A stretch of DNA of 54,515 nucleotides from an uncultured Gammaproteobacteria bacterium (GTDB taxonomy: Bacteria > Patescibacteriota > Microgenomatia > Daviesbacterales > UBA10151), in assembly GCA_964640215.1 (NCBI GenBank), contig CAZXEW010000059.1:1-54515 (forward strand). Direction: 5' to 3'. Position 1 is the stretch's first letter. Each line of letters starts with the position of its first letter. The position numbers were made by a program, and so were the translations under genes. This document shows positions 1,758 through 35,000 of the stretch, one piece after another. Under the pieces are notes generated by a model. It was not told the DNA's origin, made no database searches, and was given only the letters and a program-made list of their open reading frames with translations.

Positions 1758-3899
1758 ATGGAATTACAAACTAAATTGAGCGCTCTTGCCGGTGTGGGTT
1801 CGAGGATCAGACAATCTTTAGAAAAACTCGAACTTCGGACAGTCGAAGATTTAATCAATCATTTTCCCTTTCGCTACGAAGATTTTTCTAACACTTCAAG
1901 TATTGCTGAGGCTCAAATTGGGGAAAGTGTCACCGTCAAAGGACAAGTTTGGTCGATCAAGAATGTTTATACCCGAACCGGTAAAGTTTTGACTCAGGCG
2001 ATTCTAAATGATGGCACTAATTCGATCGAGCTGGTTTGGTTTAATCAATCGTGGCTGCCGAAAAATATCCATGTCGGGGAGAGCCTGCAAGTAGCTGGAA
2101 AAATTACTAAGAATGGGTCGAGGATGTCACTGGTGATGCCGAAGTGGGAGAAAATTCAGCTTACAGCAGACAGCTTACAGCAAACAGCCAGTCAAATTAC
2201 GGATTTAGAGAGCAGTGAGCGGTTAGCGGTTAGCGGTTTGCATACGGGCAGGCTGGTGGCGGTTTATCCGGAGACGTTTGGGTTGACCTCGAAATGGCTT
2301 CGGGCGAAGGTGGCGGAGGTATTGCCACGGGTGCGAGACGAGTTGGAGGAGACTTTGCCTGATCAACTGCGGGCAGATATGCCAAAATTAGCTGAGGCAA
2401 TTGAGCAAGTCCATTTTCCGACAGATTGGGATAAGTTAAATCAGGCTCGCCAGAGATTAGCTTTTGATGAGTTGTTTTTTATTCATTTAGCCACCCAAAA
2501 AACCCGCCAAGAGTGGAACCAAAAAGAGTTGGTTGATCCGCTGAAGATAAATCAATCGTCGATCGCCAAATTTATTGAAAAATTGCCGTTTAAGCTGACT
2601 AAGGCGCAGCTGAGAGTGATCGATCAGATATCGGATGATTTGAAAAAGGATCGGCCGATGAACCGGCTGATCCAGGGTGAAGTAGGCTCCGGCAAAACAG
2701 TCGTGGCGGCGGTGATTGCTTATATCGTGGCGCTGAATAAATTGCGAACATTGATCATGGCGCCGACGGAGATTTTGGCTTTGCAACATTATAGTACTTT
2801 GACTCATTTACTCGAACCGTTTGGTCTGAAAGTCGGGTTATATACAGGTCGGAAGAAAACAGTGCTTTCCGCTGACAGCTTACAGCAGACAGCCAACAAA
2901 GAAAAAGGCGGTGAGCGGTTAGCGGTGAGCAGATTGCAACCGGACGTGATTATCGGGACTCATGCACTGGTGTCAAAAAATTTCCAAACAAAGGATGTTG
3001 GTTTGATTGTGATTGATGAGCAACAAAGGTTTGGGGTCGAGCAGCGGGCTATTTTGCGCTCACTAGCTAAGATTCCGCATTTTTTAACGATGACTGCTAC
3101 TCCTATTCCGCGGACAGTGGCCTTGACTATGTATGGCGACTTGGATATATCTGTGATTGATGAGTTACCCGTGGGACGGCCAAAGATTAAGACATTTTTT
3201 GTACCAGCTAAAAAACGCCAAGCTGCCTACGAATTTATTCAAAAAAAGATTAAGGAGGGAGACCAGGCCTACATTATTACCCCTTTGATTGAGGAGTCGG
3301 AGACGCTTAAAAGTGCCAAGGCCGCCATTGTTGAGCACGCTTTTTTGCAAAAAAAGATTTTTCCAAAGCTGAAACTCGGGCTGCTTCATGGGCGGTTGAA
3401 GGGTCAGGACAAAGAGGCTGCGATTAATACTTTTAGGGATAAAGGGGTTGATATTTTGGTATCGACGTCGGTAGTCGAAGTGGGGGTTGATGTCTCGAAC
3501 GCGACGATTATGATGGTGGAGGGGGCTGAGCGGTTTGGCTTGGCCCAGTTGCATCAGTTTAGGGGGCGGGTTGGGCGAGGAACAAAAGAGTCTTTTTGTT
3601 TTTTATTTGCTGAGTCTGAGCAGTCTGAGGTGGTTAGACGGTTGAAAAGCCTGGAGCGGATTGACAACGGGTTGGAGCTGGCTGAGCTGGATCTAAAAAT
3701 CCGGGGATCAGGTGAGGTCTTCGGAACACGTCAGTCTGGTCGCTTTAATCTTAAAATTGCTTCATTGAGTGATCTGAAATTGGTCGAGCAAACCCGAAAT
3801 CAGGCACAGATTTTGCTGGCGAGCGACCCTTTACTTGACAAATACCCGCAAATTAAGGCAAAATTGGCCAGTCTGGCGGGTAACACCGCGCCAGATTAG
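1758..3899 (+). CDS. recG: ATP-dependent DNA helicase RecG
   Basis: OB/wedge domain, QGEVGSGKT, DEQQRFG, MTATPIPR, QLHQFRGRVGRG, DLKIRGSGE; ATG 1758 preferred over track start 1740 because TATAAT lies at 1746-1751. Confidence 0.97.
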   Translation: MELQTKLSALAGVGSRIRQSLEKLELRTVEDLINHFPFRYEDFSNTSSIAEAQIGESVTVKGQVWSIKNVYTRTGKVLTQAILNDGTNSIELVWFNQSWLPKNIHVGESLQVAGKITKNGSRMSLVMPKWEKIQLTADSLQQTASQITDLESSERLAVSGLHTGRLVAVYPETFGLTSKWLRAKVAEVLPRVRDELEETLPDQLRADMPKLAEAIEQVHFPTDWDKLNQARQRLAFDELFFIHLATQKTRQEWNQKELVDPLKINQSSIAKFIEKLPFKLTKAQLRVIDQISDDLKKDRPMNRLIQGEVGSGKTVVAAVIAYIVALNKLRTLIMAPTEILALQHYSTLTHLLEPFGLKVGLYTGRKKTVLSADSLQQTANKEKGGERLAVSRLQPDVIIGTHALVSKNFQTKDVGLIVIDEQQRFGVEQRAILRSLAKIPHFLTMTATPIPRTVALTMYGDLDISVIDELPVGRPKIKTFFVPAKKRQAAYEFIQKKIKEGDQAYIITPLIEESETLKSAKAAIVEHAFLQKKIFPKLKLGLLHGRLKGQDKEAAINTFRDKGVDILVSTSVVEVGVDVSNATIMMVEGAERFGLAQLHQFRGRVGRGTKESFCFLFAESEQSEVVRRLKSLERIDNGLELAELDLKIRGSGEVFGTRQSGRFNLKIASLSDLKLVEQTRNQAQILLASDPLLDKYPQIKAKLASLAGNTAPD
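2156..2240. repeat. Heptamer inverted-repeat element, in frame in recG (copy 1)
   Basis: cagctta cagcaga cagctta cagcaaa ... gcagtga gcggtta gcggtta gcggttt; encodes LTADSLQQTA...ERLAVSG. Confidence 0.85.
2869..2935. repeat. Heptamer inverted-repeat element, in frame in recG (copy 2)
   Basis: ccgctga cagctta cagcaga cagccaa ... gcggtga gcggtta gcggtga; encodes SADSLQQTA...ERLAVSR. Confidence 0.85.
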
Positions 3900-3968
3900 T
3901 TAATGGTAAATCGTAAGTCGTAGGTGGTAAGCATAACAAACCATTTACCTATTACCATTTACTACATA
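3899..3968. repeat. Heptamer inverted-repeat element between recG and rpmF
   Basis: aatggta aatcgta agtcgta ggtggta ... accattt acctatt accattt. Confidence 0.7.
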
Positions 3969-3974
3969 CCAAGC

Positions 3975-4178
3975 ATGCCTCACGAACCAAAGAAACGACA
4001 TTCTAAAGCGGCTAAACGGACCAGACGAGCCTCGATTAGCCTAAGCGCGATCAATTTATTTGATTGTCCTCATTGCGGTCAAAAAACCCTAGCTCATATG
4101 GCCTGTCGAAACTGCGGTTTCTACGGTGGCAAGCAAACAGCCTCGGCTAAGCCTGAGGTAAAAGTCACTCGAGCTTAA
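3975..4178 (+). CDS. rpmF: 50S ribosomal protein L32 (zinc-binding form)
   Basis: MPHEPKKRHSK...RR, CPHCG and CRNCGFY; ATG 3975 chosen because the track's upstream extension is repeat-derived. Confidence 0.93.
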   Translation: MPHEPKKRHSKAAKRTRRASISLSAINLFDCPHCGQKTLAHMACRNCGFYGGKQTASAKPEVKVTRA

Positions 4179-4194
4179 ATAATTCTTCCCGCCT

Positions 4195-4566
4195 ATGAAA
4201 ACTTCCACTGACCCGCGGCATATTAAAAGAACCCGGGTCATGCAGGAGTTATTTGCCTGGGACTTTAATCATCAGAGGCCATTTGAACACCCTGAGACCG
4301 AACAAATTACTGGTAAAGTGTCTGGGCTTGACAAACAGATTGCAGAGTGTGCACCAACCTGGCCAATCCCCAAAATAAACAAAATCGATTTAGCGATTTT
4401 GCGTCAGGCCATTTACGAGCTAGAGTCGGGTCAAACACCGGAGAAAGTAGTCATTGATGAGGCAGTGGAACTAGCCAAAGAGTTCGGTTCGAATTCATCA
4501 CCATCGTTTGTAAATGGGGTCTTAGGAAAAATTATTGCCAAAGAGGCTCTCCCAAAAATCAGCTAA
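4195..4566 (+). CDS. nusB: Transcription antitermination factor NusB
   Basis: [34 protein letters not shown]. Confidence 0.95.
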
Positions 4567-4876: not shown

Positions 4877-5539
4877 ATGATAACCATTGACGAGAGTCTT
4901 CTTAAAAAACAGATCTATAAAACAGCTTTTACCCATCGCTCGACTTTAAACGAGGTTCGGGACGTGGTTGAGTCGAATGAACGGTTGGAATTTTTAGGGG
5001 ATGCTGTTTTATCTTTAATTATTTCAACTATTTTGTATAAACTACGGCCTTTAGATAATGAGGGTGATTTGACTAACCTGCGCTCGTATATTGTCAAGAC
5101 GACTTCTTTAGCGAAGGCTGCTAAAAAGCTGCGTTTGGGTCATTTTTTGAGGCTGTCAAAAGGCGAGGAGGTGTCGGGAGGACGAGATAATCCTCAGCTG
5201 ATGGCTAATACTTACGAAGCACTGTTGGGAGCCATCTTTCTGGACGGCGGAGTTGATGCAGTCAGAGAGTTTATCGAACAGACACTGCTGCCGTTGTTTA
5301 AAGAAGAGATCAGCAGCGGGCCTCCTAAAGATGCCAAATCCTATCTGCAGGAAGTCGCCCAGACTAAAACTAAGCAGTCACCTCAATACCGAATTCTAAA
5401 AACGGAAGGGCCGGATCATGCCCGCAAATTTATGGTCGGCGTCTATATTGATGGTAGGTTATTCGGCAAAGGCGAGGGTTTTTCAAAACAGTTGGCCGAG
5501 GAATCAGCAGCTGAGGAGGCTTTAAAAGAGTTGTCCTGA
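4877..5539 (+). CDS. rnc: Ribonuclease III
   Basis: NERLEFLGDAVL signature, ANTYEALLGAIFLD, C-terminal dsRBD (GPDHARKF, G.G.SK..AE..AA). Confidence 0.97.
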   Translation: MITIDESLLKKQIYKTAFTHRSTLNEVRDVVESNERLEFLGDAVLSLIISTILYKLRPLDNEGDLTNLRSYIVKTTSLAKAAKKLRLGHFLRLSKGEEVSGGRDNPQLMANTYEALLGAIFLDGGVDAVREFIEQTLLPLFKEEISSGPPKDAKSYLQEVAQTKTKQSPQYRILKTEGPDHARKFMVGVYIDGRLFGKGEGFSKQLAEESAAEEALKELS

Positions 5540-5583: not shown

Positions 5584-6045
5584 ATGTCAGTAAAAATAAG
5601 ATTGATGCGAATAGGTTCAAGAGGCAGGCCATTTTACCGGGTGGTAGCTGTTGATGAACGCAAAAAAAGGACCGGTGGATATTTGGAGCTACTCGGGACT
5701 TACAACCCGCTGACTTCACCGAAAGAGGTCTTGCTCAAACAGGATCGGATTGATGCTTGGGTCAAAAACGGCGCCGTCATGAGTGAGGGCTTTCTAAGGA
5801 TTATTGGTAAGGCAGTGCAACACCCAATCCGACCGGCCAAAAAAGCTAAGGCCGAACCGAAGCCAGCAGAGGCTCAGAAAGAGGAGTCGTCAGTAGAACC
5901 TGAAAAAGAATCTGTGAGCGAGGAATCGAGCGAATCCGCAAATGAATCCGAAGAAACAGTTAAGTCGGTGGAGGAATCTGTAACGGAAGATCAGCCGGCC
6001 GAAAAGCCAATAATTGAGGCTACTGAAGAAACTAAATCGCTATGA
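5584..6045 (+). CDS. rpsP: 30S ribosomal protein S16 with acidic C-terminal extension
   Basis: VKIRLMRIG..RPFYRVVAVDER, LGTYNP; about 70-aa E/S/K-rich tail. Confidence 0.95.
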   Translation: MSVKIRLMRIGSRGRPFYRVVAVDERKKRTGGYLELLGTYNPLTSPKEVLLKQDRIDAWVKNGAVMSEGFLRIIGKAVQHPIRPAKKAKAEPKPAEAQKEESSVEPEKESVSEESSESANESEETVKSVEESVTEDQPAEKPIIEATEETKSL

Positions 6046-6341
6046 GAGATCTGGTCGAATATATTGCTCGGCAAATCGTTAGTGACCCGGATGGTGTCAA
6101 AGTCGAGGAGAAACAGCAAGACGGTCTTAATATTTTAGAGTTAACAGTCTCCCCGGTCGACATGGGTATAGTCATTGGCAAGAAAGGCCAGACAATTAAG
6201 GCGATCCGTAAACTACTGGCAGTCAGGGCGATGGCTGAAAATGTTCGGGTAAACTTACAACTGATCGATCCTGAAGGCGCCCACGGCACACCGCTCACTG
6301 CAGACCGCCAAACAGATGAAGCGGAAAGCGTTAAGCCGTAA
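6042..6341 (+). CDS. khpA: KH-domain RNA-binding protein (KhpA/YlqC family)
   Basis: DMGIVIGKKGQTIKAIR (GxxG loop); located between rpsP and trmD. Confidence 0.9.
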   Translation: MRDLVEYIARQIVSDPDGVKVEEKQQDGLNILELTVSPVDMGIVIGKKGQTIKAIRKLLAVRAMAENVRVNLQLIDPEGAHGTPLTADRQTDEAESVKP

Positions 6342-6351
6342 GCGGTAAGCC
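6291..6351. repeat. Heptamer inverted-repeat element forming the KhpA C-terminal tail
   Basis: ccgctca ctgcaga ccgccaa ... gcggaaa gcgttaa gccgtaa gcggtaa. Confidence 0.75.
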
Positions 6352-9391: not shown

Positions 9392-9401
9392 AGTAATAGT
9401 G

Positions 9402-9482
9402 GCTAGAGTCTAGAATCTAGATGCTAGAAAGCTATAACAAGCCTCTTTTATATTAACCTAGCCACTAGTATCTAGCAACTAG
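9402..9482. repeat. Heptamer (nCTAGnn) inverted-repeat element
   Basis: gctagag tctagaa tctagat gctagaa ... cctagcc actagta tctagca actag. Confidence 0.7.
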
Positions 9483-11315
9483 TTACTTGTTTTGGTAGGT
9501 GCCTTTGATAACCGAGAAGTTGCCTGACGGACCGGAGGTGAAAAACATCTGAGCCAGTCCGGAATCATAGGTAACGATTGCATTATTATCCAGGACTATT
9601 TTCCAACCACTAACTTCATGCAAGGACGCGTTATTGTGAAGAAAGATGATGCCGTTGTTGGCATAAAAGATGCTGGTAGTGCTGCCATTGTCGGCATCAA
9701 TGGCGGTGATGCCATTTGTCCGCGAATCAAAGTTACTTAAACCCAACAGATAACTGCCGCTGGTACCAGAGCCTTTTAACTGACCATTATTGTGAAGGGT
9801 TATTTTTCCATCAACGACGATAATGCCAGAGGCGGCACCGTAGGTGGATTTTAGTTTAAGTTGAGCACCGTTGTCTAAGGATAGGTCTCCGGTAATCCAG
9901 ATCGGGTCAGTCATGGTAGCGATACAGTTATTAGTCAAACTGATGTTGCCGACATATTTGCCCGCGTTTAAAGTTGCCTGACAGCTGCTAATATTACCAG
10001 TATAAGTGCCGATCCCAGAGGCCTGATCTTTCCAAGCCTGAATGTTAGCATCAGAAACGGGTAGAACTTTAGGAGTGGGGTCAGCTGAGCCAGGATGGTA
10101 GCTACCAGCGGTGACACCACTGATTAATTGGTAATAAGCTCCACCGGTGATATTAATGTTATTTATGGTATTGGCATAGGCGTTACCACCAATTGAAGCT
10201 CCGTTTGATCCCTGGATAAAGGTGGCCACGCCACCCATAAAGGTTTTAAAACCCAAATCACCGGCAATGGTAGTCCAGACCGGACTGCTGGCTTGCCAAT
10301 TAGGCGACCAGGCACTGCCCCCTCTGGTATAACCTTGGGTGGTATCCTGCGACCAGGTCCAGTAGTAATTAACGTTAGCGGAGGTATCGATGAGGATCCA
10401 GTAAGGAGTTTCAGCGGTCAAGGAAGGGGTGCTGGAAAAAGTCACATCAACAAATCCGTATTGATTGGTGACTAAGTTGGCCGACAGGGTGCCAGATGTT
10501 AAAACGTTGTTTTTATTTGGTTTACCACTGGAATCGCCCAAGATCCGGACAGTCGCATCTGGAGGAGTACCGACTTTTTTAAGCTTTAGTGACACTTTAT
10601 TAATGACAGCCGTGGCGACCGGTTTAAAGCCTTGGGCAACATCAAGTTGGCTATTAGCAGTTTTGCCAAATATAAAATCGGTGCAGTTTGGCACTGTACA
10701 ATCGCTTTGCTGGTCAGCAGCGGGTTGAACCCCGCCGGCAACATAGGCGTCGCCGGTGATCTGGGAGTTGTTACTCATATTAATACTACTGTTGGAATAA
10801 ATCGAGCCAACGATTCGAGCGTTATTATTTAGCTGAATTCCACCTTCACCAACCTGGACTCCGTAAACAAAGGAGACACCGGCACCCTTGACCACTTGGA
10901 TCTGAATTGCCCTTTTAACGATTGGTTTGGTTTTGTTAGGCAAATAGCCGGTAGCGGTGATAATTTTATTGGAAGAATCGATAGAAGTGATAGCAACTGA
11001 GTAAGAGCCCGATCCGAAGTTGGTTTCAACCTCACCGGTATAGACACCAGCGGTAGTATTTAAAGAGGCAACGGCTTTATCAATTCCGGCCTCGGCCAAA
11101 TTAATGGCTTGGACGTCGCTAACAGAATAGCGTGAACTCTGATTGTAGGTCAGAGCATTACCGATAATAATGACGGTAGTGACTACCACAAGCGTTAGGA
11201 CAATGATTGCCAGAATAAACATTTGGCCTCCTTGGTTATTAGTTTTTAGTTCGTAGTTAGTAGTATTTTGATATTTACTAAGAACTCTGAACCAAGAACT
11301 AAGTACTTTATTCAT
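9483..11315 (-). CDS. Large PilX/PilK-like minor pilin, putative tip adhesin
   Basis: QGGQMFILAII pilin-like helix, AINLAEAGI PilX motif, a jelly-roll-like central domain (AQGFKP...YWILID) and Asn/Gly-rich beta-helix-like repeats. Confidence 0.7.
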   Translation of the reverse strand: MNKVLSSWFRVLSKYQNTTNYELKTNNQGGQMFILAIIVLTLVVVTTVIIIGNALTYNQSSRYSVSDVQAINLAEAGIDKAVASLNTTAGVYTGEVETNFGSGSYSVAITSIDSSNKIITATGYLPNKTKPIVKRAIQIQVVKGAGVSFVYGVQVGEGGIQLNNNARIVGSIYSNSSINMSNNSQITGDAYVAGGVQPAADQQSDCTVPNCTDFIFGKTANSQLDVAQGFKPVATAVINKVSLKLKKVGTPPDATVRILGDSSGKPNKNNVLTSGTLSANLVTNQYGFVDVTFSSTPSLTAETPYWILIDTSANVNYYWTWSQDTTQGYTRGGSAWSPNWQASSPVWTTIAGDLGFKTFMGGVATFIQGSNGASIGGNAYANTINNINITGGAYYQLISGVTAGSYHPGSADPTPKVLPVSDANIQAWKDQASGIGTYTGNISSCQATLNAGKYVGNISLTNNCIATMTDPIWITGDLSLDNGAQLKLKSTYGAASGIIVVDGKITLHNNGQLKGSGTSGSYLLGLSNFDSRTNGITAIDADNGSTTSIFYANNGIIFLHNNASLHEVSGWKIVLDNNAIVTYDSGLAQMFFTSGPSGNFSVIKGTYQNK

Positions 11316-12316: not shown

Positions 12317-13243
12317 TTAACAGGCCGCATTGGCATTTTTACAAATTGGTCCGCTGGAAAAAATCGAGAAATCAAAATAGAATGGAGTGACATTTTTTTG
12401 AACAAATAGATGGAGCTTGCGCTGGGTTTGGCCGGAATAGCCTTTTGAAGTATAGATGACAATTTGGGCTGGTAATACTGCATTACCGATTGGGGCGATG
12501 GCGATTTTTTGGGGGACGTTTGATGTGTCGTAGAGAATTCTGACGCGGACTAAAATTGGGATTTCGCCAACCGGTACAATATTGACGGTGTATTGGCAAT
12601 AAAAAATACTGTTTGAAGGTTGGTCGGACCTTAGATTGTAAGTCAGTTTTGTTTTGGCGCCGTTACAACTTGCGGCAGAATAGGTAAAGTTATTATTCCC
12701 ACGGTTGGAAGAGTCTAAGTAAGTGCGGTAGGCTTGATAAGAACCACTGGCTGTTCTAGTAACCACGGCCACTTCTACACCTGGCAGGCTATCGGCATCC
12801 TGATTTACATTGCCAAATAGTATATCGAAATTGGTTCGGTTATCAGGGGGGAGGCTATAAAATGGTTCAAGGGTATCGGGATGTGCTAACCAAAATTGAG
12901 CAAAGGCAGTCTTATCGATTTCAGGATACTCTAAGCCTTTATTTAGGTCTGAGGAGATCGGGACAAGACCACTCGAGATGACATCTGCACTGGATTGGTT
13001 ACCTAGTTCAGTGCTTGTTACGAACGGAACAGGGGATGCACCGGCGGACGAGTCGAAAGCGGTGTTGGTACCGATGGCCTTTTCAATACCTGCTTCGGCA
13101 GCCGAAAAAGCTCGGGTGGATTGGTCAATCTTGGTGGAGGTGGCGACATCGGTTAGGGATCGTTGAGTGATGGCTAAACCGATGGTTAGTGAAACTAGGG
13201 TAGCTAGTAAAATAATTAGTAGTGCTTGGCCTGTTTGATTCAT
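12317..13243 (-). CDS. Minor pilin (PilX-like)
   Basis: QTG|QALLIILL and RAFSAAEAGIE motifs. Confidence 0.8.
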   Translation of the reverse strand: MNQTGQALLIILLATLVSLTIGLAITQRSLTDVATSTKIDQSTRAFSAAEAGIEKAIGTNTAFDSSAGASPVPFVTSTELGNQSSADVISSGLVPISSDLNKGLEYPEIDKTAFAQFWLAHPDTLEPFYSLPPDNRTNFDILFGNVNQDADSLPGVEVAVVTRTASGSYQAYRTYLDSSNRGNNNFTYSAASCNGAKTKLTYNLRSDQPSNSIFYCQYTVNIVPVGEIPILVRVRILYDTSNVPQKIAIAPIGNAVLPAQIVIYTSKGYSGQTQRKLHLFVQKNVTPFYFDFSIFSSGPICKNANAAC

Positions 13244-13947
13244 TTTCGGACTTGGATAGTTGTTTCAAAAACCTGACCACTGGTGTCAGTGCCGATGGTT
13301 TCTTCGGAACGGTTGTTAGTGTTGATGCGTTGAGATAGTGCAAATGAGATTGAGACTGAGTCGCTCGAACCAGCACTGCGGTTGATCATAAAGAAATTGC
13401 CAGATCCTTGGAGGCTACTTGGTAATCTGACTGCTACCACCCCGGAGGTAGGATCGGCATCGATTAGGTTGGCTGGGTTGTTTAAGGTAAGATCGCTGCC
13501 GCAGTGGCTGGGAGCATCTCTGGAGTCGATAATGTTGGTGGGGTGATCTGACTGGATATTGCCATTGGCGGAACTATCGGCTGAGGTAATTCGGAATCTA
13601 GTGTAATTAATGGTGTCTTGAACCTTGTAAGAGAGGATCATGGTATCACCCCAGGTGACTTTGTTATTTTCAGGATCAGTGGTGAGGGCGCCTTTATTTC
13701 CGACGCAGACGACTGATTCAGCTCCGCGAATAGATTGATCCATATAAGTTAAAGCGGCTGAGCCGTTTCTTTTTATGTTACCTAGGAGTTGAGTTTTGGT
13801 GTTTGATTGGAAGGTCCGAGACAGGAGTGAGGCGATAATCAGACCGATAATTGAAATGATTGAGACCGAGATGAGGGCTTCAATCAGGGTGAAACCGTTT
13901 TTAGTTCGTAGTTCGTAGTTCGTAGTTCGTAGTGGGGGATGGATCAT
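13240..13947 (-). CDS. Minor pilin with heptamer-repeat-encoded leader
   Basis: KNG|FTLIEALISVSI; ATG 13947 overlaps the upstream stop (ATGA); leader LRTTNYELRT comes from (TAGTTCG)4 on the + strand at 13902-13933. Confidence 0.85.
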   Translation of the reverse strand: MIHPPLRTTNYELRTKNGFTLIEALISVSIISIIGLIIASLLSRTFQSNTKTQLLGNIKRNGSAALTYMDQSIRGAESVVCVGNKGALTTDPENNKVTWGDTMILSYKVQDTINYTRFRITSADSSANGNIQSDHPTNIIDSRDAPSHCGSDLTLNNPANLIDADPTSGVVAVRLPSSLQGSGNFFMINRSAGSSDSVSISFALSQRINTNNRSEETIGTDTSGQVFETTIQVRK

Positions 13948-14456
13948 ATGTCTTTTGAAATTATGGTGACGAGTTGCGATTGGTGTGTTCCGGAGTAATC
14001 GGTCCAATTGACTTGGGCGCTAACTTTGACTTTATCAGGCACTGATGCCGGGCCCAAAGCGATAGTGCGGGTAAAGCGACCATTGGCCAAGCTCTGGGCT
14101 GGGCCGTTGGTAAGACTACACTGTGTAGCATTATAGCTGATAACAAAAATAGGGGCGATGAAATTCACGTTCCAGACTAAATTTCCGGTTGAATTAGCTG
14201 GATCGGCTCGCCAATAGTAAATCACTGATCCAGTATCAGTGACCGGACAATTGCGGTCTTTAATGACTCGGACTTGCTCAAGACCTTCCTGGGCTAGTTT
14301 AGTGGCCTGAATCTGATTTTGAGCGTACTGACTATTTCTTAAGCCTATGATGGTGGTCACGGCGATGGCAGCGATGACAACTATAGCTAGTCCTGAGGCG
14401 ATAGTAACTTCTAACAGAGCCTGCCCTTGAGGCTCAAAACTGGTCTTATTTGGCAT
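13944..14456 (-). CDS. Minor pilin
   Basis: PQG|QALLEVTIA, ATKLAQEGLEQVR. Confidence 0.8.
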   Translation of the reverse strand: MPNKTSFEPQGQALLEVTIASGLAIVVIAAIAVTTIIGLRNSQYAQNQIQATKLAQEGLEQVRVIKDRNCPVTDTGSVIYYWRADPANSTGNLVWNVNFIAPIFVISYNATQCSLTNGPAQSLANGRFTRTIALGPASVPDKVKVSAQVNWTDYSGTHQSQLVTIISKDI

Positions 14457-15030
14457 TGATTGATCCTCCTTGGTTGATAGTGATGGTTTTTATGATGCCC
14501 GGCAGTTGGGTATCAGTGAGAGTAAAAGAGATGGTGTTACTACTTCCGCACGAGAAGTAAGTACTCTTGCGGGTAAAAGTGACGAACCAAGGCAAGGGAC
14601 ACCCGCTTGGTGCTTGTAAGGCGAGGTTACTGACTAGGTTGGTAGTTGTTTTAATGTTGGCTGTTGTCATTTGTGTTGGTACTGAGGCGGGGTCTTGGCA
14701 GATAGTGCCGATTGAATAATTATCGGCGTAGATTAAAACTTCCCAGTTTAGGATGAGATTATTGGCGCAAGGTGCGGTGAGTTGTGTGCTTAGGGGCGTT
14801 GGAGCGGGCTGGACGTTGGCCTGGGCATAAGATTGGGCCTGGCGCAGAGTAGAGGCTAATTTGTCGAGCTCGTTATTTAAAAGTTGAGTCTCGCTAAAAT
14901 TTCGTAAAGTCGGAATCCCCACCGCCGTGACTATGGCTAGGATCGACATACTGACCAAAATCTCGATCAGGGTGAAACCGTTTTTAGTCGGTAGTAGGTA
15001 GTCGGTAGTAGGTAGTCGGAGCAGCGGCAT
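14446..15030 (-). CDS. Minor pilin (FimT/PulH-like) with repeat-encoded leader
   Basis: KNG|FTLIEILVSMSI, LRQAQSYAQA; leader LPTTDYLLPT comes from repeats at 14985-15019. Confidence 0.85.
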   Translation of the reverse strand: MPLLRLPTTDYLLPTKNGFTLIEILVSMSILAIVTAVGIPTLRNFSETQLLNNELDKLASTLRQAQSYAQANVQPAPTPLSTQLTAPCANNLILNWEVLIYADNYSIGTICQDPASVPTQMTTANIKTTTNLVSNLALQAPSGCPLPWFVTFTRKSTYFSCGSSNTISFTLTDTQLPGIIKTITINQGGSINAK

Positions 15031-15074
15031 TGTATTAAAAGTAGCACAAATTGGCTCGGGAGTCACCTAAATTA

Positions 15075-18487: not shown

Positions 18488-19543
18488 TTAAGTTTTTAAC
18501 AACCGGTTGAGCACCTGGGGTCGGAGCGAGTAGTTTTGGGCTACCTCAATAGTAATCAGACCTTCTTTGACCAGCTGAACAAGCGAGGTTTCGAGTAGAC
18601 GCATGCCGTACTCACCGGATGTTTGAATCATATTGTCAATTAAATGAGTCTTGTTATCGCGGATGACCGAACGCAGAGCCGGTACTCCAAAAGCGATTTC
18701 AGAGGCCATGGCCCGTCCGGGGCGGATTGTTGGGACCAGTCTTAGAGAAATGATGGCTTCAATGACCGAGGCAAATTGGCTCCGGATTTGAGGTTGCTGA
18801 TTTTCCGGGAAGACATCGATCACCCGATCGACTGTTTGAGCCGCTGAGTTGGTGTGCAGCGTGGCGAAAACCAGATGGCCGGTTTCGGCGATGGTCATGG
18901 CAGCGGCGATAGTTTCCAAATCGCGCATCTCACCGATTAGGACAACATCCGGATCTTCGCGTAGGGCGTATTTCAGAGCATTGTCCCAGGAGAGAGTATC
19001 GGACAAGATTTCCCGCTGAGAGACAAGGGCTTTGGCTTTGGGATAGACAAATTCGATTGGGTCTTCAACGGTAATAATGTGGCGACCTTCGGTTTGATTG
19101 AGTTGATTGATAAAAGCCGCCAGGGTGGTCGATTTGCCGTTGCCGGTCGGTCCGGTGACGAGTACTAAACCTTGTCGCAAATTGACGATTTTGGCGACTG
19201 ATTCCGGCAACCCGGTTTGGGGAATGGTTCGGATAGTGGAGGGAATTAGCCGGAATGAGGCGGCGTAGTGGGAGCGTTGTTTATAGATATTGACCCTAAA
19301 TCTGGCGGTATTTTGGTAATCGAGTCCTAAATCGAGTTCCCATTTTTTTTGTAACATTTCCAGTTGAGGGGGTGTTAGGATGCTTTGCAACATAGAATCC
19401 AGATCGGATGGGATAAGATCCGGGTGGCCCGGAACTTTTATCAGTTCACCGTTGATGCGCAGGTGGGGGGCATAACCGACCAGCAAGTGCAGGTCCGAGG
19501 CTCCTCTGACAATGGTTAATTCCAATAGTTGGTTGATATTCAT
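18488..19543 (-). CDS. pilT: Type IV pilus retraction ATPase PilT
   Basis: GASDLHL, GPTGNGKSTTLA, TVEDPIE, ALREDPDVVLIGEMRD, AETGHLVFATLHT. Confidence 0.95.
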   Translation of the reverse strand: MNINQLLELTIVRGASDLHLLVGYAPHLRINGELIKVPGHPDLIPSDLDSMLQSILTPPQLEMLQKKWELDLGLDYQNTARFRVNIYKQRSHYAASFRLIPSTIRTIPQTGLPESVAKIVNLRQGLVLVTGPTGNGKSTTLAAFINQLNQTEGRHIITVEDPIEFVYPKAKALVSQREILSDTLSWDNALKYALREDPDVVLIGEMRDLETIAAAMTIAETGHLVFATLHTNSAAQTVDRVIDVFPENQQPQIRSQFASVIEAIISLRLVPTIRPGRAMASEIAFGVPALRSVIRDNKTHLIDNMIQTSGEYGMRLLETSLVQLVKEGLITIEVAQNYSLRPQVLNRLLKT

Positions 19544-19555
19544 AACGTATGCTTT

Positions 19556-19620
19556 CCGCTTACAGCTGACTGCTTACTGCCAGAAATGTGGCGGTTAGCG
19601 GTGAGCGGTTTGCTGTCAGC
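19556..19620. repeat. Heptamer inverted-repeat element between pilB and pilT
   Basis: ccgctta cagctga ctgctta ... gcggtta gcggtga gcggttt; same family as the recG inserts. Confidence 0.85.
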
Positions 19621-21311
19621 TAGTCTTGTGCGACTCTCAGGACCTCCTCCATGGTCGTGATGCCTTCGATGACTTTTAGGTAGCCGTCCTGTTTGAGAGT
19701 AATCATGCCGTCTTCAATGGCCTGGTTTTCAATAACATCGCTGGAGGATCGCTCCAAAATGAGTTTAACCTGTTTTTCGCTGACTGGCAAAACTTCATAA
19801 ATACCGGTTCGACCATTGTAACCAGAATAGCCACAGTTACCACAACCATTACCTTTATAAAGCTGGACAGTTCCTTTAGGCATTAGTCGGCCTAAAACTT
19901 GGGTAATATTATCAAGTACTTCTTGAGGAGGCGTATAGGAAATTTGGCAATGAGTACAAATCTTGCGCAATATCCGTTGTCCGACAACAGCGTTGATGGC
20001 TGAAGCCACTAAAAATGGCTCAGAGCCCATATCGAGCAAACGAGGCAGGGCGCCGGAAGCTGAGTTGGTATGGAGTGTTGAAAAGACTTGGTGTCCAGTT
20101 AGCGCTGCTTGGATGGCTAACTCCGCGGTTTCAGTATCCCGAATCTCACCAACCAACATGATATTGGGGTCTTGTCGCAGAAATGAGCGCAATGCATTGG
20201 CAAAAGTCAGGCCGATGGTTGGATTGACTTGGACTTGGTTGGTACCAGGAATTTGGTACTCAACCGGATCCTCAACTGTCAGAATATTAACTTTGGTGGT
20301 CGAGAGTTTAGACAGAATCGAGTAGAGAGTGGTAGTTTTACCAGAGCCGGTCGGACCACAGATCAGGATAATACCGTGAGGCCGGAGCAGTTGTGATTCG
20401 AGGGTTTTTAAACTGCCGGCCCGAATACCCAATTCCTGAAGAGTCGGGGCTTTTTGAGATTTTGGCAATAATCGCAACACTACTTTCTCGCCAAAAACAG
20501 TCGGGATGGTTGAAACCCGAAGGTCGATAACCAGTTTGTCATGGTCGTAAGAGAACCGTCCGTCCTGAGGCAATCGGCGTTCATCGATTTTGAGGGTGGA
20601 CAGAATTTTGACCCGGGAAACAACTGCTTCGTGAACTTTTTTGGGCAAAATAATTTTTTCATGCAAAATGCCGTCGATCCGAAAGCGGACCCGGGTTTGA
20701 TTTTCAAGGGGTTCGATATGAATATCCGAGGCGTTGGCTTTGATGGCGTACTCCAATAGTTGGGTGACGATGTTGGCAACCGGAGCCTCTTGAATGATTT
20801 CCGCTTTGTCGTTTTCGACAACCTGAGGAAGACCAATACTAACTTCTTTGAGGGCTGAGGCGACTTCAGTGGTCAGGTTTTGGGAGTATTGGGAATTGAT
20901 AGCTTTGGTGACGTCTTCGATGGAAGCTAAAAAGCGTTTGACTTGTAAACCGGTCTTTTTTTCAATAAATTGAATTACTTGCAAATCGAGTGGGTCGGCC
21001 ATTGCCACCAATATGCTGTCCAGATCTCGTTGAAAGGGAATAAGTTGGTAGCGCCTGGCCACAGCCTCTGGGACTAAGTTTAAAACCTCTGTTGAGATTG
21101 CTTTGCTTTCGACTTTGACAAAAGGTAAGCCTAAAATTTGGGCCTTGGCTTCGACTATTTTTTCGAGTGGGGCAAAATGGTGTTCCAGGATGATTTTTTC
21201 AGTGGCGTGGCCGGTGTTGATACTTTCGAGTTTGATGGCTGAGACTTGAGGGCTGGTCAGGATACCCTGAGAAGCTAAAATATCTTCAATGTTTAGTTGT
21301 AGTTGACTCAT
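19620..21311 (-). CDS. pilB: Type IV pilus extension ATPase PilB (GspE family)
   Basis: ASDIHIEP, RLPQDGR, GPTGSGKTTTLY, LRQDPNIMLVGEIRD, CTHC/CGNC zinc motif. Confidence 0.96.
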   Translation of the reverse strand: MSQLQLNIEDILASQGILTSPQVSAIKLESINTGHATEKIILEHHFAPLEKIVEAKAQILGLPFVKVESKAISTEVLNLVPEAVARRYQLIPFQRDLDSILVAMADPLDLQVIQFIEKKTGLQVKRFLASIEDVTKAINSQYSQNLTTEVASALKEVSIGLPQVVENDKAEIIQEAPVANIVTQLLEYAIKANASDIHIEPLENQTRVRFRIDGILHEKIILPKKVHEAVVSRVKILSTLKIDERRLPQDGRFSYDHDKLVIDLRVSTIPTVFGEKVVLRLLPKSQKAPTLQELGIRAGSLKTLESQLLRPHGIILICGPTGSGKTTTLYSILSKLSTTKVNILTVEDPVEYQIPGTNQVQVNPTIGLTFANALRSFLRQDPNIMLVGEIRDTETAELAIQAALTGHQVFSTLHTNSASGALPRLLDMGSEPFLVASAINAVVGQRILRKICTHCQISYTPPQEVLDNITQVLGRLMPKGTVQLYKGNGCGNCGYSGYNGRTGIYEVLPVSEKQVKLILERSSSDVIENQAIEDGMITLKQDGYLKVIEGITTMEEVLRVAQD

Positions 21312-27976: not shown

Positions 27977-28051
27977 CGGTCGAACAATATGTGAAGACGG
28001 TCGAACAATATGTGAAGACGGTCGAGCGATATTTGAAGACGGTCGAGCGAT
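27977..28051. repeat. 21-bp tandem direct repeat (about 3.5 units)
   Basis: cggtcgaacaatatgtgaaga x2, cggtcgagcgatatttgaaga, then partial cggtcgagcgat; no spacers. Confidence 0.9.
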
Positions 28052-31941: not shown

Positions 31942-31948
31942 CAAAGTA

Positions 31949-32083: not shown

Positions 32084-35000
32084 ATGGCAGACAGCGACAA
32101 TAATTCTAATGGTATCGGTAGGGTAGAGGGGACCTCGATCATCGAGGAAATGCAGCGATCATATCTGGACTACGCCATGTCAGTGATCGTGTCACGGGCG
32201 TTGCCGGATGTCCGGGATGGTCTAAAACCGGTTCAGCGGCGAATTGTTTACGCCATGCAGCAGCAAAATCTGCATCACACCTCCCGTTATCAAAAGTCAG
32301 CGGCTGTGGTGGGTGAGGTATTGAAAAGCTTCCATCCGCATGGAGATGTGCCGGTTTATGACGCGATGGTCAGAATGGCCCAGGATTTTTCGATGCGCTA
32401 TACCTTGGTTGATGGGCAGGGAAATTTTGGCTGTTTTACAATAGATACCAAAATCCGCTTGACTGATGGTAGAAATTTGAGTTTTGAGGGGTTGATTGAG
32501 GAGCAAAGCAAAGGACGAAGGCACTGGACTTTTTCGTTTAATCATCAGTTGGGGAAGATTGAGGTGGAGGAGATTAAACAACCGCGCTTAACCCGGAAGG
32601 ATGCGGAATTAGTTGAAGTTGAGTTAGATAATGCAGAAAAGATTAAGTGTACGCCGGATCACCGTTTTATGCTGCGAGATGGGTCTTATCGCCAAGCTAA
32701 AGATTTGCAGCCAGGGGATTCGTTAATGCCGCTTTATAGCCAGATTTGTGATGGTGCAAAAGATAAGAACTTGAAGGGCTATGAAAGAATTTCTCAACCT
32801 TTTGCCGATTCTTGGCAATTCACACACCATTTATCTGATGAATGGAATTTAAAACACCAAGTATACGAAAAGAAAGCTGGTCGAATCCGTCACCACGCTA
32901 ATTTTAATAAGTTGAACAACGATCCTGAAAACATCGTCCGTTTGCAGTGGGCAGATCACTTCAAAATTCATTATGAAATGGCCTCTTGGAGGCACAAAAA
33001 TGATCCTGAGTATGTTAAAAAAATAGCCGAAGGCAGGCAGAAATTTATTCAGGCAAATCACGAAAAGCTATCAATCCGAACTTCGGCCCGGAACCATTTG
33101 GCATGGCAGGATCCTAAATATCGTCAAAAAAAGACTGAGTCAATCAAAAAAATGTGGCTTGACGAAGCTTATAGAGCAAGGATGCAACAAGTATCAAGCC
33201 AAAACCTGAAAAAACTTTGGCAAAACGAGGACTTTAAACAACTCTTGAGTAATTTGAAATCTGAAGAGATGAAAAAGCGCTGGCAGGACCCTAAATACCG
33301 TTTGGAGATGCAAAAGCAAATGAAGGAAATATCAAATAAAATTTGGTCTGATCCGGAGCACCGGAAATATATTTCTGAATTAATGATCGAGCGGACCAGC
33401 GAATCAGGATGGAAAAAAGCACAAAGCCAGATTACCAAAAAATTGTGGCAGGACCCAAACTTTAGAGCAAAATATCCAGCGGATCACTTTAGAAAAATGG
33501 CTTTGAGTTTATGGGCTGACGAAAATATCCGGGAAATGCATCGCAAGAAGATTGCTAAACAGCGGGAAGATCCAATATTTATAGAAAAAAACCGTCAAGG
33601 TGTTGTCTCGTCAAATAACCGTCGATTGCAAGAAAATCCAAAGATGATGACTCAATTAGCTGCGAAAGCTAAGGTTTCTCTACAGCTAAAATGGCAAGAT
33701 CCAGCGTACAAGAAGCAGGTTGTTAAGAGTAAGGTGTTAGGTTATGTATCTGGTTTGTTACAAAAATACCCCCTGGTAACACCACAGATCTACGAAAAAG
33801 AGCGAATTAATAATGGGGTGCCGAAAATTGATCGGGCTTTGGAGTTTTTTGACGATTTTTCGTCGCTGGTCGGACAAGCCCAAAATTATAATCACAAAGT
33901 AGTTAGGGTAGTTGTATTAGAAGAACGACAAGATGTTTATGATTTGACGATTGATAGCTTACATAATTTTGCCTTAGCTGCAGGAATTTTTGTACACAAC
34001 TCTGTTGATGGTGACTCGCCGGCGGCAATGAGGTATACCGAGGCTAGGCTATCGGCCATTGCCGATGAGCTGCTCCGGGATATCAATAAAAATACCGTTG
34101 ACTTTGTCGATAACTATTCGGGGACAGTCCAGGAACCGATGCTGTTGCCCTCGGTGATACCTAATCTGCTGCTCAACGGAGCTTCCGGTATCGCAGTGGG
34201 TATGGCTACCCAGATTCCACCTCATAATCTGGGAGAGGTAACGGACGCTTTGATTAGTATGATTGAGAATCCGGTCAGGGAGCGTACCGCTGACGGCAGA
34301 CCGCAAACCGCCACCCCAATAGTCACAGCAACCGACGATAGAGAAGTATTGGAGCAATTGGCACAGAGCGGTAAGCCGGTAGCGGAAAGCGGATTTAAGT
34401 CGGAGTTGACTGTTGAAGATTTGATAAAGCTGATTAAAGGTCCGGATTTTCCGACTGGTGCGTCAATTTATGATCAGTCCGAGATTTTAGCAGCCTACGC
34501 CACCGGCAAAGGCAGGATTGTGATGAGGGCAAAAGCGGAGATTGAGGAGGCCAGGGGCGGGCGGTTTGACATTATAATCACTGAGTTGCCTTATCAGGTG
34601 AATAAAGCGGTGCTGATAGCCAGAATAGCTGACATGGTCCGAGATAAGAAAATCGACGGCATTTCCGATCTGCGCGATGAGTCGGACCGTAAAGGGATGC
34701 GGATGGTGATTGAGCTAAAACGGGATGCCAAACCTCAGTCGGTGCTAAATAATCTTTATAAACATACGGCGCTGCAGTCGGTTTTCAATGTTAACATGGT
34801 CGCCCTGTCTGACGGGGTACCCCATTTGATGACATTAAAGCGAGTCCTTGAGGAGTTTGTGACCCATCGAATGACAGTGGTTCGACGCCGGTCTGAGTTT
34901 GAGTTAGGTGAGGCCAGGGCAAGGGAGCATATTTTGGAAGGATTAAAGATCGCGGTTGATAATATTGATGAAGTGATCGAGACGATCCGCAAAAGCGCCG

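What the first reader, a model, noticed from the sequence alone, without database searches (positions are those of the whole stretch)
2156..34393. One 7-bp-period hairpin family translated in frame inside essential proteins
Seen: an element made of (CMGCTNA)n-loop-(GCGGTNA)n occurs twice in recG, giving the shared peptides ADSLQQTA and ERLAVS. It also bounds a roughly 43-aa GyrA insertion (34286-34393), forms the KhpA C-terminal tail (6291-6351) and sits intergenically between pilB and pilT (19556-19620). All coding copies keep the frame. Established analogues are Rickettsia palindromic elements (in-frame protein inserts) and cyanobacterial heptamer STRR repeats. Inference: a mobile or self-templating micro-element that adds new peptide loops to helicase and gyrase; the mobilising enzyme is unknown.
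Basis: partly seen in the sequence, partly recalled or inferred. Interest (0 to 1): 0.8.

Follow-up and report, generated by a model that had tools for sequence, protein, structure and literature searches.

The report
Heptamer hairpin repeats inside essential genes
A tiny candidate-phyla (Microgenomates) bacterium carries short hairpin repeats built from 7-base units that sit between genes and are also read in frame inside floppy linker segments of RecG, gyrase A and KhpA. This is a new variant of the "selfish palindromes inside protein genes" known from Rickettsia, not a new kind of system.

Summary
Five copies of a (CCGCTNA)n-loop-(TNAGCGG)n element lie at the stated coordinates, where under 0.1 would be expected by chance, and a sixth diverged copy lies at 52397-52480. 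Period-7 repeats in general are about 60-fold enriched in the window. The host is a CPR/Microgenomates bacterium near Candidatus Daviesbacteria, not a cyanobacterium.

The coding copies lie in hypervariable linkers: two in RecG, one in GyrA, plus the KhpA C-terminus. In relatives these sites are empty or hold other palindromic repeats, including heptamer hairpins with different units. The GyrA copy is a clean 43-aa insertion between adjacent residues of a solved GyrA. Both RecG segments are the lowest-confidence parts of the AlphaFold model. Each internal copy has only one stop-free frame on the coding strand, and that frame is the one used. This explains the shared peptides ADSLQQTA and ERLAVS.

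Not all copies are recent: the left arm of the first RecG copy is orthologous in relatives at about 60% identity and differs by one 7-nt unit.

Best reading: a non-autonomous foldback repeat that grows by 7-nt slippage, spreads by an unresolved copying step, and survives only where tolerated. No transposase, target duplication or Rfam family was found. It is a new variant of a known kind, of moderate interest.

The parts
1758..3899 (+). recG (713 aa from the ATG; the ORF opens at GTG 1740), host of two copies
   Evidence: Pfam RecG_wedge, DEAD, Helicase_C and RecG_dom3_C. 120 orthologues found, the named ones Candidatus Daviesbacteria. Matches T. maritima RecG 1gm5 at E=1e-140.
2157..2239 (+). 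Copy recG-1: left arm 2157-2191 (5 units CAGCNNA), loop 2192-2211, right arm 2212-2239 (GCGGTTA units). Encodes RecG aa 133-161, IQLTADSLQQTASQITDLESSERLAVSGL.
   Evidence: Weak fold, z=-1.26. AlphaFold pLDDT below 50 at aa 137-162. Left arm orthologous in L206 and L207, with one extra 7-nt unit in the window.
2863..2937 (+). Copy recG-2: left arm 2863-2896, loop 2897-2907 (AACAAAGAAAA), right arm 2908-2937. Encodes RecG aa ~368-394, TVLSADSLQQTANKEKGGERLAVSRLQ.
   Evidence: Fold -30.7 kcal/mol, z=-3.65. pLDDT below 50 at aa 369-392. In relatives the site is empty, or filled by other repeats.
6291..6351 (+). Copy khpA: CCGCTCA CTGCAGA CCGCCAA - loop - AGCGGAA AGCGTTA AGCCGTA AGCGGTA AGCC. Supplies the last ~17 codons and the TAA stop (6339-6341) of khpA (6042-6341) and most of the spacer before trmD (6358).
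   Evidence: KhpA orthologues end at aa 76-85 in 14 of 15 loci, and the syntenic L208 has an 80-aa KhpA with a 14-nt spacer. Fold z=-1.18.
19550..19620 (.). Intergenic copy filling the spacer between pilB (19620-21311, -) and pilT (18488-19543, -).
   Evidence: Best hairpin of the set: -35.8 kcal/mol, z=-4.34 on the + strand and z=-2.16 on the transcribed - strand. No terminator-like site.
34274..34402 (+). Copy gyrA: 129-nt (43-aa) insertion [11 protein letters not shown]...VAESGFKS in GyrA (32084-36268). Arms at 34280-34313 (CCGCTGA CGGCAGA CCGCAAA CCGCC) and 34367-34393 (GAGCGG TAAGCCG GTAGCGG AAAGCGG), around a 53-nt centre.
   Evidence: Clean insertion between residues 202 and 203 of solved B. 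subtilis GyrA 4ddq. Absent in P0127, P0128, P0130 and P0135; unrelated inserts in others. Fold z=-2.89.
52397..52480 (.). Sixth, diverged relative in a spacer: (TCAGCTN)x4 - loop - (CTGANAA)x4.
   Evidence: TRF, sequence, stem segments in 7-nt register with z about -2.5 on both strands. Only a weak profile hit, E=1.4.
3902..3966 (.). Context: a heptamer hairpin of another family (GGTAAAT CGTAAGT ... ACCATTT ACCTATT) filling the recG-rpmF spacer.
   Evidence: (I1). Fold z=-3.37. The spacer is 9 nt and empty in L122, 6 nt in L208, and holds a different AGAAGTT array in L121.
38760..38837 (.). Context: a heptamer hairpin of a third family (TAGTTNN ... CTACNAA) between two - strand genes.
   Evidence: Fold z=-2.87.

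Best explanation
The element is a non-autonomous foldback repeat of DNA built from the heptanucleotide CCGCTNA. About four units form a 5' arm and about four reverse-complement units (TNAGCGG) form a 3' arm, around a short centre that differs at every site.

1. Shown by comparison: the arrays change length in 7-nt steps, as replication slippage would give.
2. Inferred: copies at unlinked loci derive from one another by a DNA-level copying step that transfers arms rather than a whole cassette. This could be template switching or gene conversion between hairpin-prone sites, or mobilisation in trans. The enzyme is unknown.
3. Shown by comparison: copies persist only where they do little harm. These places are junctions between genes of an operon and disordered linkers of proteins, which in related genomes are empty or hold other palindromic repeats.
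4. Shown: on the coding strand each internal copy has one stop-free frame. Any copy that survives in a gene is therefore read in that frame, which gives the recurrent peptides ADSLQQTA and ERLAVS.
5. Inferred: the peptides are passengers, not adaptive additions.
6. Inferred: the strong G-over-C bias of the + strand erodes the C-rich arm (CCGC to CAGC or CTGC) while the G-rich arm stays GCGG.
For: Family reality:
- Ten arms align in register with the consensus GCTNACCGCTNAC..CCGCC and about 4 units each.
- Right arms of recG-1, recG-2 and pilB/pilT are 21-23/28 identical. Left arms of recG-2, pilB/pilT and gyrA are 20-22/28 identical.
- Chance expectation is below 0.1.

Slippage:
- The window is 12 vs 0.2 enriched for period 7 only. 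80 CPR recG loci show 7.2 period-7 arrays per 100 kb against 0.85-2.6 for other periods.
- The recG-1 left arm is orthologous to L206 and L207 but one unit longer.

Tolerated sites:
- RecG site 2 is an 8-aa linker (KKxxxDAD) in roughly a quarter of 120 orthologues. Elsewhere it holds at least 8 different palindrome-coded peptides, and sister taxa often differ.
- DNA at that site shows heptamer hairpins with other units in L121, L127, L130 and L132, and a non-heptamer palindrome in L123.
- The GyrA site is empty in four relatives and filled by three other repeats in L203-L205. It is a clean 43-aa insertion against 4ddq.
- The khpA tail is absent in 14 of 15 orthologues.
- Both RecG segments have pLDDT below 50, next to confident flanks.

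Frame: one open + frame per internal copy.

Families move between loci: the CTAGAGT unit lies in a spacer of the window (9401-9429) but inside RecG site 2 of the closest relative, L121.

Strand bias: GC skew is +0.10 to +0.25 along the whole window. By my count from the sequences, C is kept in about 7 of 20 left-arm units and G in about 15 of 20 right-arm units.

Literature: heptanucleotide repeats are the commonest long simple repeats in many bacteria, with slippage proposed as the cause (PMC4679880). In-frame palindromic repeats are established in Rickettsia (PMC10969869).
Against: - No act of copying is seen. There is no population-level empty/filled polymorphism, no target-site duplication by inspection of the flanks, and no transposase, RAYT or reverse transcriptase among the window's genes. 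Only 54.5 kb of the genome is in hand.
- The centres of the copies are unrelated (4 to 53 nt), which is unusual for a transposed unit.
- The recG-2 centre shares an 11-nt identity (AAGAAAAAGGC) with the centre of the different hairpin at the same site in L121. The arm-less L122 has AGCAAAAAAAGG there. This suggests arms come and go around a resident centre, which no standard mechanism explains.
- GCGGTNA arrays occur in many phyla and in viral contigs, so a shared unit could partly reflect a general preference rather than common descent.
- The element-coded peptides were found in no other protein of the 5.8-billion-protein collection, so spread beyond this lineage is not shown.
Confidence: 0.55

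Rival explanations
1. It is a classical MITE: a deletion derivative of an insertion sequence whose terminal inverted repeats happen to be heptamer arrays, cut and pasted or copied by a transposase encoded elsewhere in the genome.
For: Inverted arms of constant length (about 4 units) and shared sequence at unlinked sites. Presence or absence against orthologues. A nested insertion of a GC-rich palindrome inside a heptamer arm in L204. Several coexisting families, as with MITEs. In-frame MITE insertions are documented.
Against: No target-site duplication is apparent. The internal sequence is not conserved at all between copies. No transposase lies in 54.5 kb. One arm (recG-1 left) predates the other and is orthologous in relatives. 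The right arms are closer to each other than to the complement of their own left arms.
Confidence: 0.2
2. Each copy arose locally. A 7-nt slippage-prone seed expanded into a tandem array and was mirrored by intrastrand template switching. The common unit reflects a mutational or selective preference for CTNA-type heptamers, not common descent.
For: Pure tandem arrays without a partner exist, for example RecG site 1 of L208 and several arrays in the window. recG-1 shows the order 'left array first, right arm later'. The centres are site-specific. The same unit forms arrays and hairpins in Gemmatimonadota, Gammaproteobacteria, cyanobacteria and viral contigs.
Against: There are 16384 possible heptamers, yet five unlinked sites share the unit, the order of variant units (CCGCTGA-CNGCAGA-CNGCMAA-CMGCC) and the arm length. 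The recG-1 right arm (GCGG units) is not the complement of its own left arm (CAGC units) but matches the right arms at recG-2 and pilB/pilT. The related genome fragment L208 has only one heptamer array in 16.4 kb of syntenic DNA.
Confidence: 0.15
3. The hairpins are selected cis-acting structures, either in RNA or in DNA, and the coding copies are tolerated extensions of that role. In RNA they could be RNase III processing sites, mRNA stabilisers or punctuation between operon genes.
For: Three of six copies and most other heptamer hairpins sit exactly between genes of operons: pilB/pilT, khpA/trmD, recG/rpmF. The same junctions carry hairpins of other families in other lineages. An RNase III gene lies in the window at 4877-5539.
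Against: The junctions are empty in close relatives with the same gene order. There is no terminator signature and no Rfam family. The pilB/pilT copy folds much better on the non-transcribed strand (-35.8 against -23.8 kcal/mol). Two copies are degenerate as hairpins. The sequence, not just the structure, is shared between sites.
Confidence: 0.08
4. The segments are removed from the mRNA or skipped in translation, so no peptide is made.
For: None found.
Against: All three internal copies preserve a 3n length and are read in their only stop-free frame. Exact excision would remove any need for this. No bacterial mechanism that religates mRNA after hairpin excision is known (my own knowledge).
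Confidence: 0.01
5. These are ordinary low-complexity linkers, with chance periodicity or an assembly artefact.
For: Linkers are often compositionally simple. One related contig, L121, ends inside a heptamer array.
Against: Shuffle tests. Enrichment specific to period 7. The same unit occurs in non-coding spacers. Flanks on both sides are collinear with orthologues.
Confidence: 0.01

Closest known systems
Rickettsia palindromic elements (RPE; Ogata et al. 2000, 2002, as summarised in PMC10969869)
   Same: Multi-copy palindromic DNA found both between genes and in frame inside unrelated housekeeping genes. It encodes a recurrent peptide at positions compatible with protein fold and function, in a small-genome bacterium, with no known mobilising enzyme.
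   Different: RPEs are ~150 bp, belong to defined sequence families of Rickettsia and have conserved internal sequence. Here the arms are tandem 7-nt units, the centre is not conserved, the elements are 60-130 bp, and the host is a CPR bacterium. Sequence relatedness to RPEs was not tested.
Heptanucleotide long simple-sequence repeats, including cyanobacterial STRR (Mrazek et al. 2007 as cited in PMC4679880; STRR from my own knowledge)
   Same: Tandem units of exactly 7 nt, strongly over-represented relative to other periods, mostly outside genes, with slippage as the proposed generator.
   Different: Those are described as direct arrays. Here two arrays in inverted orientation form a hairpin, and copies lie in frame inside essential genes. 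The taxon and unit sequences differ.
TAACTGA direct repeats of Beggiatoaceae, cyanobacteria and Bacteroidetes (MacGregor 2015, PMC4679880)
   Same: Heptamer arrays that contain stop codons in the forward orientation, overlap stop codons of upstream genes, abut start codons of downstream genes and occasionally lie within ORFs near protein ends. The window's other arrays (GAACTAA, CTACTAA, ACCCATT) behave in just this way.
   Different: TAACTGA repeats are almost never inverted (one indirect repeat in 170 sets). The CCGCTNA family here is always inverted and sits inside proteins as well as at their ends.
Bacterial MITEs and REP/REPIN elements (PMC10969869; PMC3116915)
   Same: Short, non-coding-sized, hairpin-forming, multi-copy, mostly intergenic, and occasionally fused in frame to genes.
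   Different: No target duplication, no partner IS or RAYT was seen. The arms are not individually palindromic as REPs are, and the internal sequence is not conserved.
Short palindromic or hairpin elements inside organellar protein genes (for example Volvox organelles, fungal mitochondrial GC clusters; from my own knowledge, not checked here)
   Same: Hairpin repeats that colonise coding regions in frame and expand variable loops.
   Different: Organellar genomes, and no 7-nt unit structure as far as I recall.

Membership tests
Rickettsia palindromic elements | Palindromic repeat present in many copies, part of them in frame inside unrelated ORFs | tested here: met
   Five copies plus one diverged copy. 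Three are internal to RecG or GyrA and one forms the KhpA C-terminus.
Rickettsia palindromic elements | Membership of one of the RPE sequence families, with a conserved ~150-bp unit, in Rickettsia | tested here: not met
   The host is a Microgenomates/CPR bacterium. The unit is 60-130 bp with a non-conserved centre. Direct sequence comparison with RPEs was not done.
Rickettsia palindromic elements | Insertions lie at positions compatible with protein fold (surface) | tested here: met
   RecG segments have pLDDT below 50 between confident flanks. The GyrA insertion falls between adjacent residues 202 and 203 of 4ddq. The GyrA fragment model itself was too poor to use.
Heptanucleotide simple-sequence repeats / STRR | Tandem head-to-tail units of 7 nt, in excess over other periods | tested here: met
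   12 observed against 0.2 expected for period 7, and 0-2 for other periods. TRF arrays.
Heptanucleotide simple-sequence repeats / STRR | Cyanobacterial host and the published STRR units | tested here: not met
   The host is a CPR bacterium. The units CCGCTNA/TNAGCGG differ from the STRR units I recall (CCCCAGT, TTGGTCA, CAACAGT; from memory).
MITE | Terminal inverted repeats | tested here: met
   The arms are reverse complements apart from periodic mismatches.
MITE | Target-site duplication flanking the element | tested here: inconclusive
   None is seen by inspection of the flanks of the five copies (sequences). The element ends cannot be fixed to the nucleotide without a true empty allele.
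MITE | A parent insertion sequence or transposase with matching ends in the same genome | not testable with these tools
   No transposase lies in the 54.5-kb window; there is only a XerC/D-type recombinase at 37806-38750. The rest of the genome is not available.
REP / REPIN-RAYT | Each repeat is itself a short palindrome with a conserved head, paired as inverted doublets, with a RAYT gene | tested here: not met
   The arms are tandem CCGCTNA units and are not self-complementary. No Y1 transposase lies in the window.
Intrinsic terminator | GC-rich hairpin followed by a T run | tested here: not met
   No terminator-like site at the khpA or the pilB/pilT copy.
Any described RNA family | Match to an Rfam covariance model at gathering score | tested here: not met
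   No match in the whole window.

The most novel reading that the evidence does not exclude
The arms are not carried in as part of a cassette. They are written in place, in 7-nt register and on both sides of a resident sequence, by a templated DNA-synthesis or repair process at breaks or stalled forks.

This would explain four things together:
- The centres are site-specific, and the recG-2 centre is shared with a different hairpin in the sister species.
- The right arms at unlinked sites are closer to each other than to the complement of their own left arms.
- The same few sites are re-used by different unit families across Microgenomates.
- Period 7 alone is enriched.

If so, heptamer hairpins are scars of an undescribed repair or insertion activity that is widespread in bacteria.
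Probability: 0.1. Interest if true: 0.85.

Novelty: new variant of a known kind. Interest (0 to 1): 0.55.

Why it matters
CPR bacteria have genomes of about 1 Mb and are usually described as streamlined and poor in mobile DNA. Here a 54-kb stretch carries at least 15 heptamer arrays or hairpins, and three essential-type proteins (RecG, GyrA, KhpA) translate them.

The comparative data add a point not found in the literature searches run here. Across Microgenomates the same few linker positions in RecG, GyrA and the khpA-trmD junction are repeatedly filled, emptied and refilled by different palindromic repeats. These proteins therefore have 'landing pads' whose length variation (RecG orthologues listed at 645-738 aa) is largely repeat-driven.

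This matters in four ways:
- Annotation: inserts can look like novel domains or break alignments.
- Assembly of CPR genomes: one related contig here (L121) ends inside such an array.
- How disordered loops arise in proteins.
- The open question of why 7 nt is the preferred repeat unit in bacteria.

Tried and rejected
1. The cyanobacterial origin suggested by heptamers is rejected. RecG, GyrA and KhpA relatives are Microgenomates/Daviesbacteria.
2. The inverted-repeat finder with 8-nt seeds missed the family because of its periodic mismatches. I replaced it with a period-7 and core-chain scan.
It showed only that the unit is widespread. The same held for viral contigs.
4. The metagenome scan with RecG returned mostly distant CPR loci of 59% identity or less. 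These were useful for the hot-spot result but not for empty/filled alleles.
5. A search with the element-coded peptides found nothing.
6. The AlphaFold model of the GyrA fragment was too poor to use (mean pLDDT 56). I replaced it with an alignment to solved GyrA.
7. Terminator, promoter and Rfam explanations gave no signal.
8. I considered that the ancestor of the window and L121 already had the AGAGTC-type hairpin at RecG site 2. The neighbour-joining tree shows that family scattered, with sister taxa differing, so ancestry cannot be inferred.
9. Elhai et al. 2008 on small dispersed repeats could not be read.

Full report
**What is there**

The window (54,515 bp, 45% G+C) comes from a CPR/Microgenomates bacterium. 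The best-named relatives of its RecG are Candidatus Daviesbacteria at 57-62% identity. The two closest proteins, at 78% and 67%, come from unnamed short contigs.

- recG 1758-3899
- rpsP, then khpA 6042-6341, then trmD
- pilT 18488-19543 and pilB 19620-21311 on the minus strand
- gyrA 32084-36268, which also carries a 523-aa intein

There is a 5' arm of about four units of C[C/A/T]GCTNA, a short centre, and a 3' arm of about four units of TNAGCGG. The peptides ADSLQQTA and ERLAVS occur in both RecG copies.

**Is it more than chance?**

Yes.
- Chains of at least three CNGC cores spaced by 7 nt occur 4 times (left type) and 3 times (right type), against 0.015 and 0.085 in shuffles.
- With one fixed threshold, the window has 12 period-7 segments against 0.2 expected. 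Periods 5, 6 and 8-12 give 0-2.
- The ten arms align in register.
- A profile built from the arms finds nothing else in the window except a weak hit at 52403-52415. That hit lies in a sixth, diverged hairpin of (TCAGCTN)4...(CTGANAA)4 at 52397-52480.
- As RNA, recG-2, the pilB/pilT copy and the gyrA copy fold clearly better than shuffles (z=-3.65, -4.34, -2.89). recG-1 and khpA do not (z=-1.26, -1.18).

**Are the coding copies insertions?**

*GyrA.* Against solved B. subtilis GyrA (4ddq), the query aligns as residues 1-91 to 112-202 and 135-233 to 203-301. The 43 residues encoded by 34274-34402 are therefore a clean insertion between adjacent residues. Four Microgenomates orthologues have nothing there, and others have 25-60 unrelated residues. 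DNA of three relatives shows what fills that site:
- L203: an imperfect GTCAGCA-type heptamer hairpin.
- L204: an (AAGAGTC)n...(AGACTCT)n heptamer hairpin, with a GC-rich palindrome nested in its left arm.
- L205: a non-heptamer palindrome.

*KhpA.* Fourteen of 15 orthologues end at residue 76-85, and the window's protein runs to 99. The last ~17 codons and the stop lie in the element. The syntenic Daviesbacteria contig L208 has an 80-aa KhpA and a 14-nt spacer. L124 has a different heptamer hairpin across its own khpA stop codon.

*RecG.* Both copies lie in the two indel-rich regions of the alignment. At site 2, between YTGxKK and DVIVGTHA:
- Roughly a quarter of 120 orthologues have an 8-residue linker of the form KKxxxDAD.
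- The rest carry at least eight different families of palindrome-coded peptide.
- In a neighbour-joining tree, sister taxa often differ in state: empty against filled, or one family against another.
- At the DNA level, L121 (78% identical RecG) has an (AGTCCAG/AGATTAG)7...(CTCGACT)3 hairpin exactly where the window has its CCGCTNA copy. L127, L130 and L132 have other heptamer hairpins. L123 has a GC-rich non-heptamer palindrome. L122 and many others have a short plain linker.

The AlphaFold model of the window's RecG (mean pLDDT 72.6) has pLDDT below 50 at 137-162 and 369-392. These are the two element-coded segments (133-161 and 368-394), and their flanks are confident. Three other segments of the model are equally low.

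**Not all of it is recent**

Site 1 of RecG carries the motif (D/E)SLQSxxxSxQT in many Daviesbacteria.
- The DNA of L206 and L207 (about 60% identity) shares GACAGCTTACA..ACAGCCAGTCA with the window's recG-1 left arm and the start of its centre.
- The window has one more 7-nt unit, and a three-unit GCGGTTA right arm that they lack.
- L208 encodes the same motif with a pure tandem array of (TCAGNNN)4.5.

So the left array at site 1 predates these species, its length changes by whole units, and the inverted arm was added later. It is not met, because the relatives' DNA is still 7-periodic.

**Why the same peptides**

On the + strand, each internal copy has exactly one frame without stops. A copy can survive in a + strand gene only in that frame. 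The preserved 3n length and the use of the only open frame in all three internal copies also argue that the segments are translated rather than removed from the RNA.

**What is shared between copies, and what is not**

- Arms are shared. recG-1, recG-2 and pilB/pilT right arms are 21-23/28 identical. khpA and gyrA form a second subgroup at 19/28.
- Centres are unrelated, from 4 to 53 nt.
- The recG-1 right arm (GCGG units) is not the complement of its own left arm (CAGC units) but resembles the right arms elsewhere.
- The centre of recG-2 (AACAAAGAAAAAGGC) shares 11 consecutive bases with the centre of the unrelated hairpin at the same site in L121. The arm-less L122 has AGCAAAAAAAGG there.
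- Unit families are shared between species at different loci. CTAGAGT/CTAGAAT is in a spacer of the window (9401-9429) and in RecG site 2 of L121.

These facts favour a process that copies arms between hairpin-prone sites over the transposition of a fixed cassette. They do not identify the process. No target duplication is apparent, and no transposase, RAYT or reverse transcriptase lies in the window. Rfam has no match. Neither intergenic copy looks like a terminator.

**Strand bias**

GC skew is +0.10 to +0.25 in every 4-kb block, whatever the gene orientation. Strong G/C strand disparity has been described in some other Microgenomates lineages (PMC7143001). By my count from the arm sequences, the C-rich left arms have lost C at the second position of the unit, which is kept in about 7 of 20 units. 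The G-rich right arms keep GCGG in about 15 of 20.

**Wider setting**

- Period-7 arrays are enriched in 1.06 Mb of CPR DNA around recG: 7.2 per 100 kb against 0.85-2.6 for other periods. The density varies between lineages. L208 has one array in 16.4 kb of syntenic DNA, where the window has eight or nine.
- GCGGTNA arrays, including hairpins with the opposite arm order, occur in many phyla and in viral contigs.
- The element-coded peptides were found in no other protein.
- The literature already holds two relevant points. Heptanucleotide repeats are the commonest long simple repeats in many bacteria, with slippage proposed, and TAACTGA arrays overlap gene ends (PMC4679880). Palindromic repeats are inserted in frame in Rickettsia genes (PMC10969869).
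- Four full-text searches found nothing on such repeats in CPR proteins.

**Verdict**

Three qualifications apply. The linkers are shared landing sites for many repeat families. One arm is ancient. The copying step and its enzyme are unknown.

I rate it a new variant of a known kind, combining RPE-like in-frame palindromes with heptamer simple repeats, of moderate interest. The unexplained behaviour of arms changing while centres stay is the most promising lead.

Noticed in passing
window 32432-34000 (GyrA aa 117-639): GyrA is split by a 523-aa intein (Pfam Intein_splicing). It starts at Cys after GQGNFG and ends in VHN before [14 protein letters not shown], next to the catalytic tyrosine motif. 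Its middle holds eight W-x-[DN]-[PE]-x-[YFIH]-[RK] repeats, and no endonuclease domain was recognised by Pfam.
   Followed up: partly
window 13897-13936 and 14985-15019 (- strand genes 13240-14007 and 14446-15066): Heptamer arrays (CGAACTA, CCGACTA/CCTACTA on the sense strand) encode the leader peptides of two prepilins: MIHPPLRTTNYELRTKNG|FTLIE and MPLLRLPTTDYLLPTKNG|FTLIE. The syntenic relative L208 has a short leader, MKIFFPHG|FTLIE, without repeats.
   Followed up: partly
window 48779-48818, 49596-49640, 36288-36325, 11235-11264, 3940-3966: A second class of heptamer arrays is G-poor on the sense strand (GAACTAA, CTACTAA, ACCCATT, ACCATTT). They are not inverted or are the downstream arm only, are predicted unstructured (MFE 0), and end a few bases before a start codon or Shine-Dalgarno site. 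They resemble the TAACTGA leader repeats described in Beggiatoaceae and cyanobacteria.
   Followed up: partly
window 1231-1739: The long spacer upstream of recG holds other palindromic repeats (GAGATCCCTCGCTAGGACGCTTCGGGATGAC; GGATTCCCGC...GCGGGAATGAC). The second type is also upstream of recG in L121. Related GC-rich palindromes are translated inside RecG and GyrA of relatives, giving peptides such as VIARSETTKQS, VILSEAKDL and VIAAEAGEAQ.
   Followed up: partly
whole window: GC skew is strongly positive (+0.10 to +0.25) in every 4-kb block regardless of gene strand. This matches the G/C strand disparity reported for some other Microgenomates lineages (PMC7143001).
   Followed up: partly
L011 2190-2345, L016 6590-6800, L040 7515-7645 (Gemmatimonadota MAGs); L006 5810-5900: (GCGGTGA)n and (TCACCGC)n arrays flank a central GC-rich palindrome (GTCATCCCGAGGAGCG...GGGATC). 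These are composite hairpins with the same heptamer but the opposite arm order to the window.
   Followed up: no
L204 2880-2990: Inside GyrA of a relative, a GC-rich palindrome (CCGCCGAAGGCGAGGCTCGCCAAAGGCGG) is nested within the left arm of an (AAGAGTC)n heptamer hairpin. This is evidence of repeated hits at one site.
   Followed up: no
window 27977-28046, 46600-46656, 52538-52580: Tandem repeats of 21-22 nt (2-3.3 copies). The first lies in the spacer after the MurD-like gene. The other two were not placed.
   Followed up: no
window 40220-45406 (-), 38834-40180 (-): A 1728-aa protein with thrombospondin type-1 and fibronectin type-III domains lies next to two cohesin-domain proteins. They are probably surface or adhesion proteins.
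   Followed up: no
RecG alignment A1, columns 400-470; solved RecG 1gm5: Microgenomates RecG lacks most of the helix that other bacteria have between the TGS strand and the DVIVGTHA strand. That shortened linker is the site that repeats colonise.
   Followed up: partly
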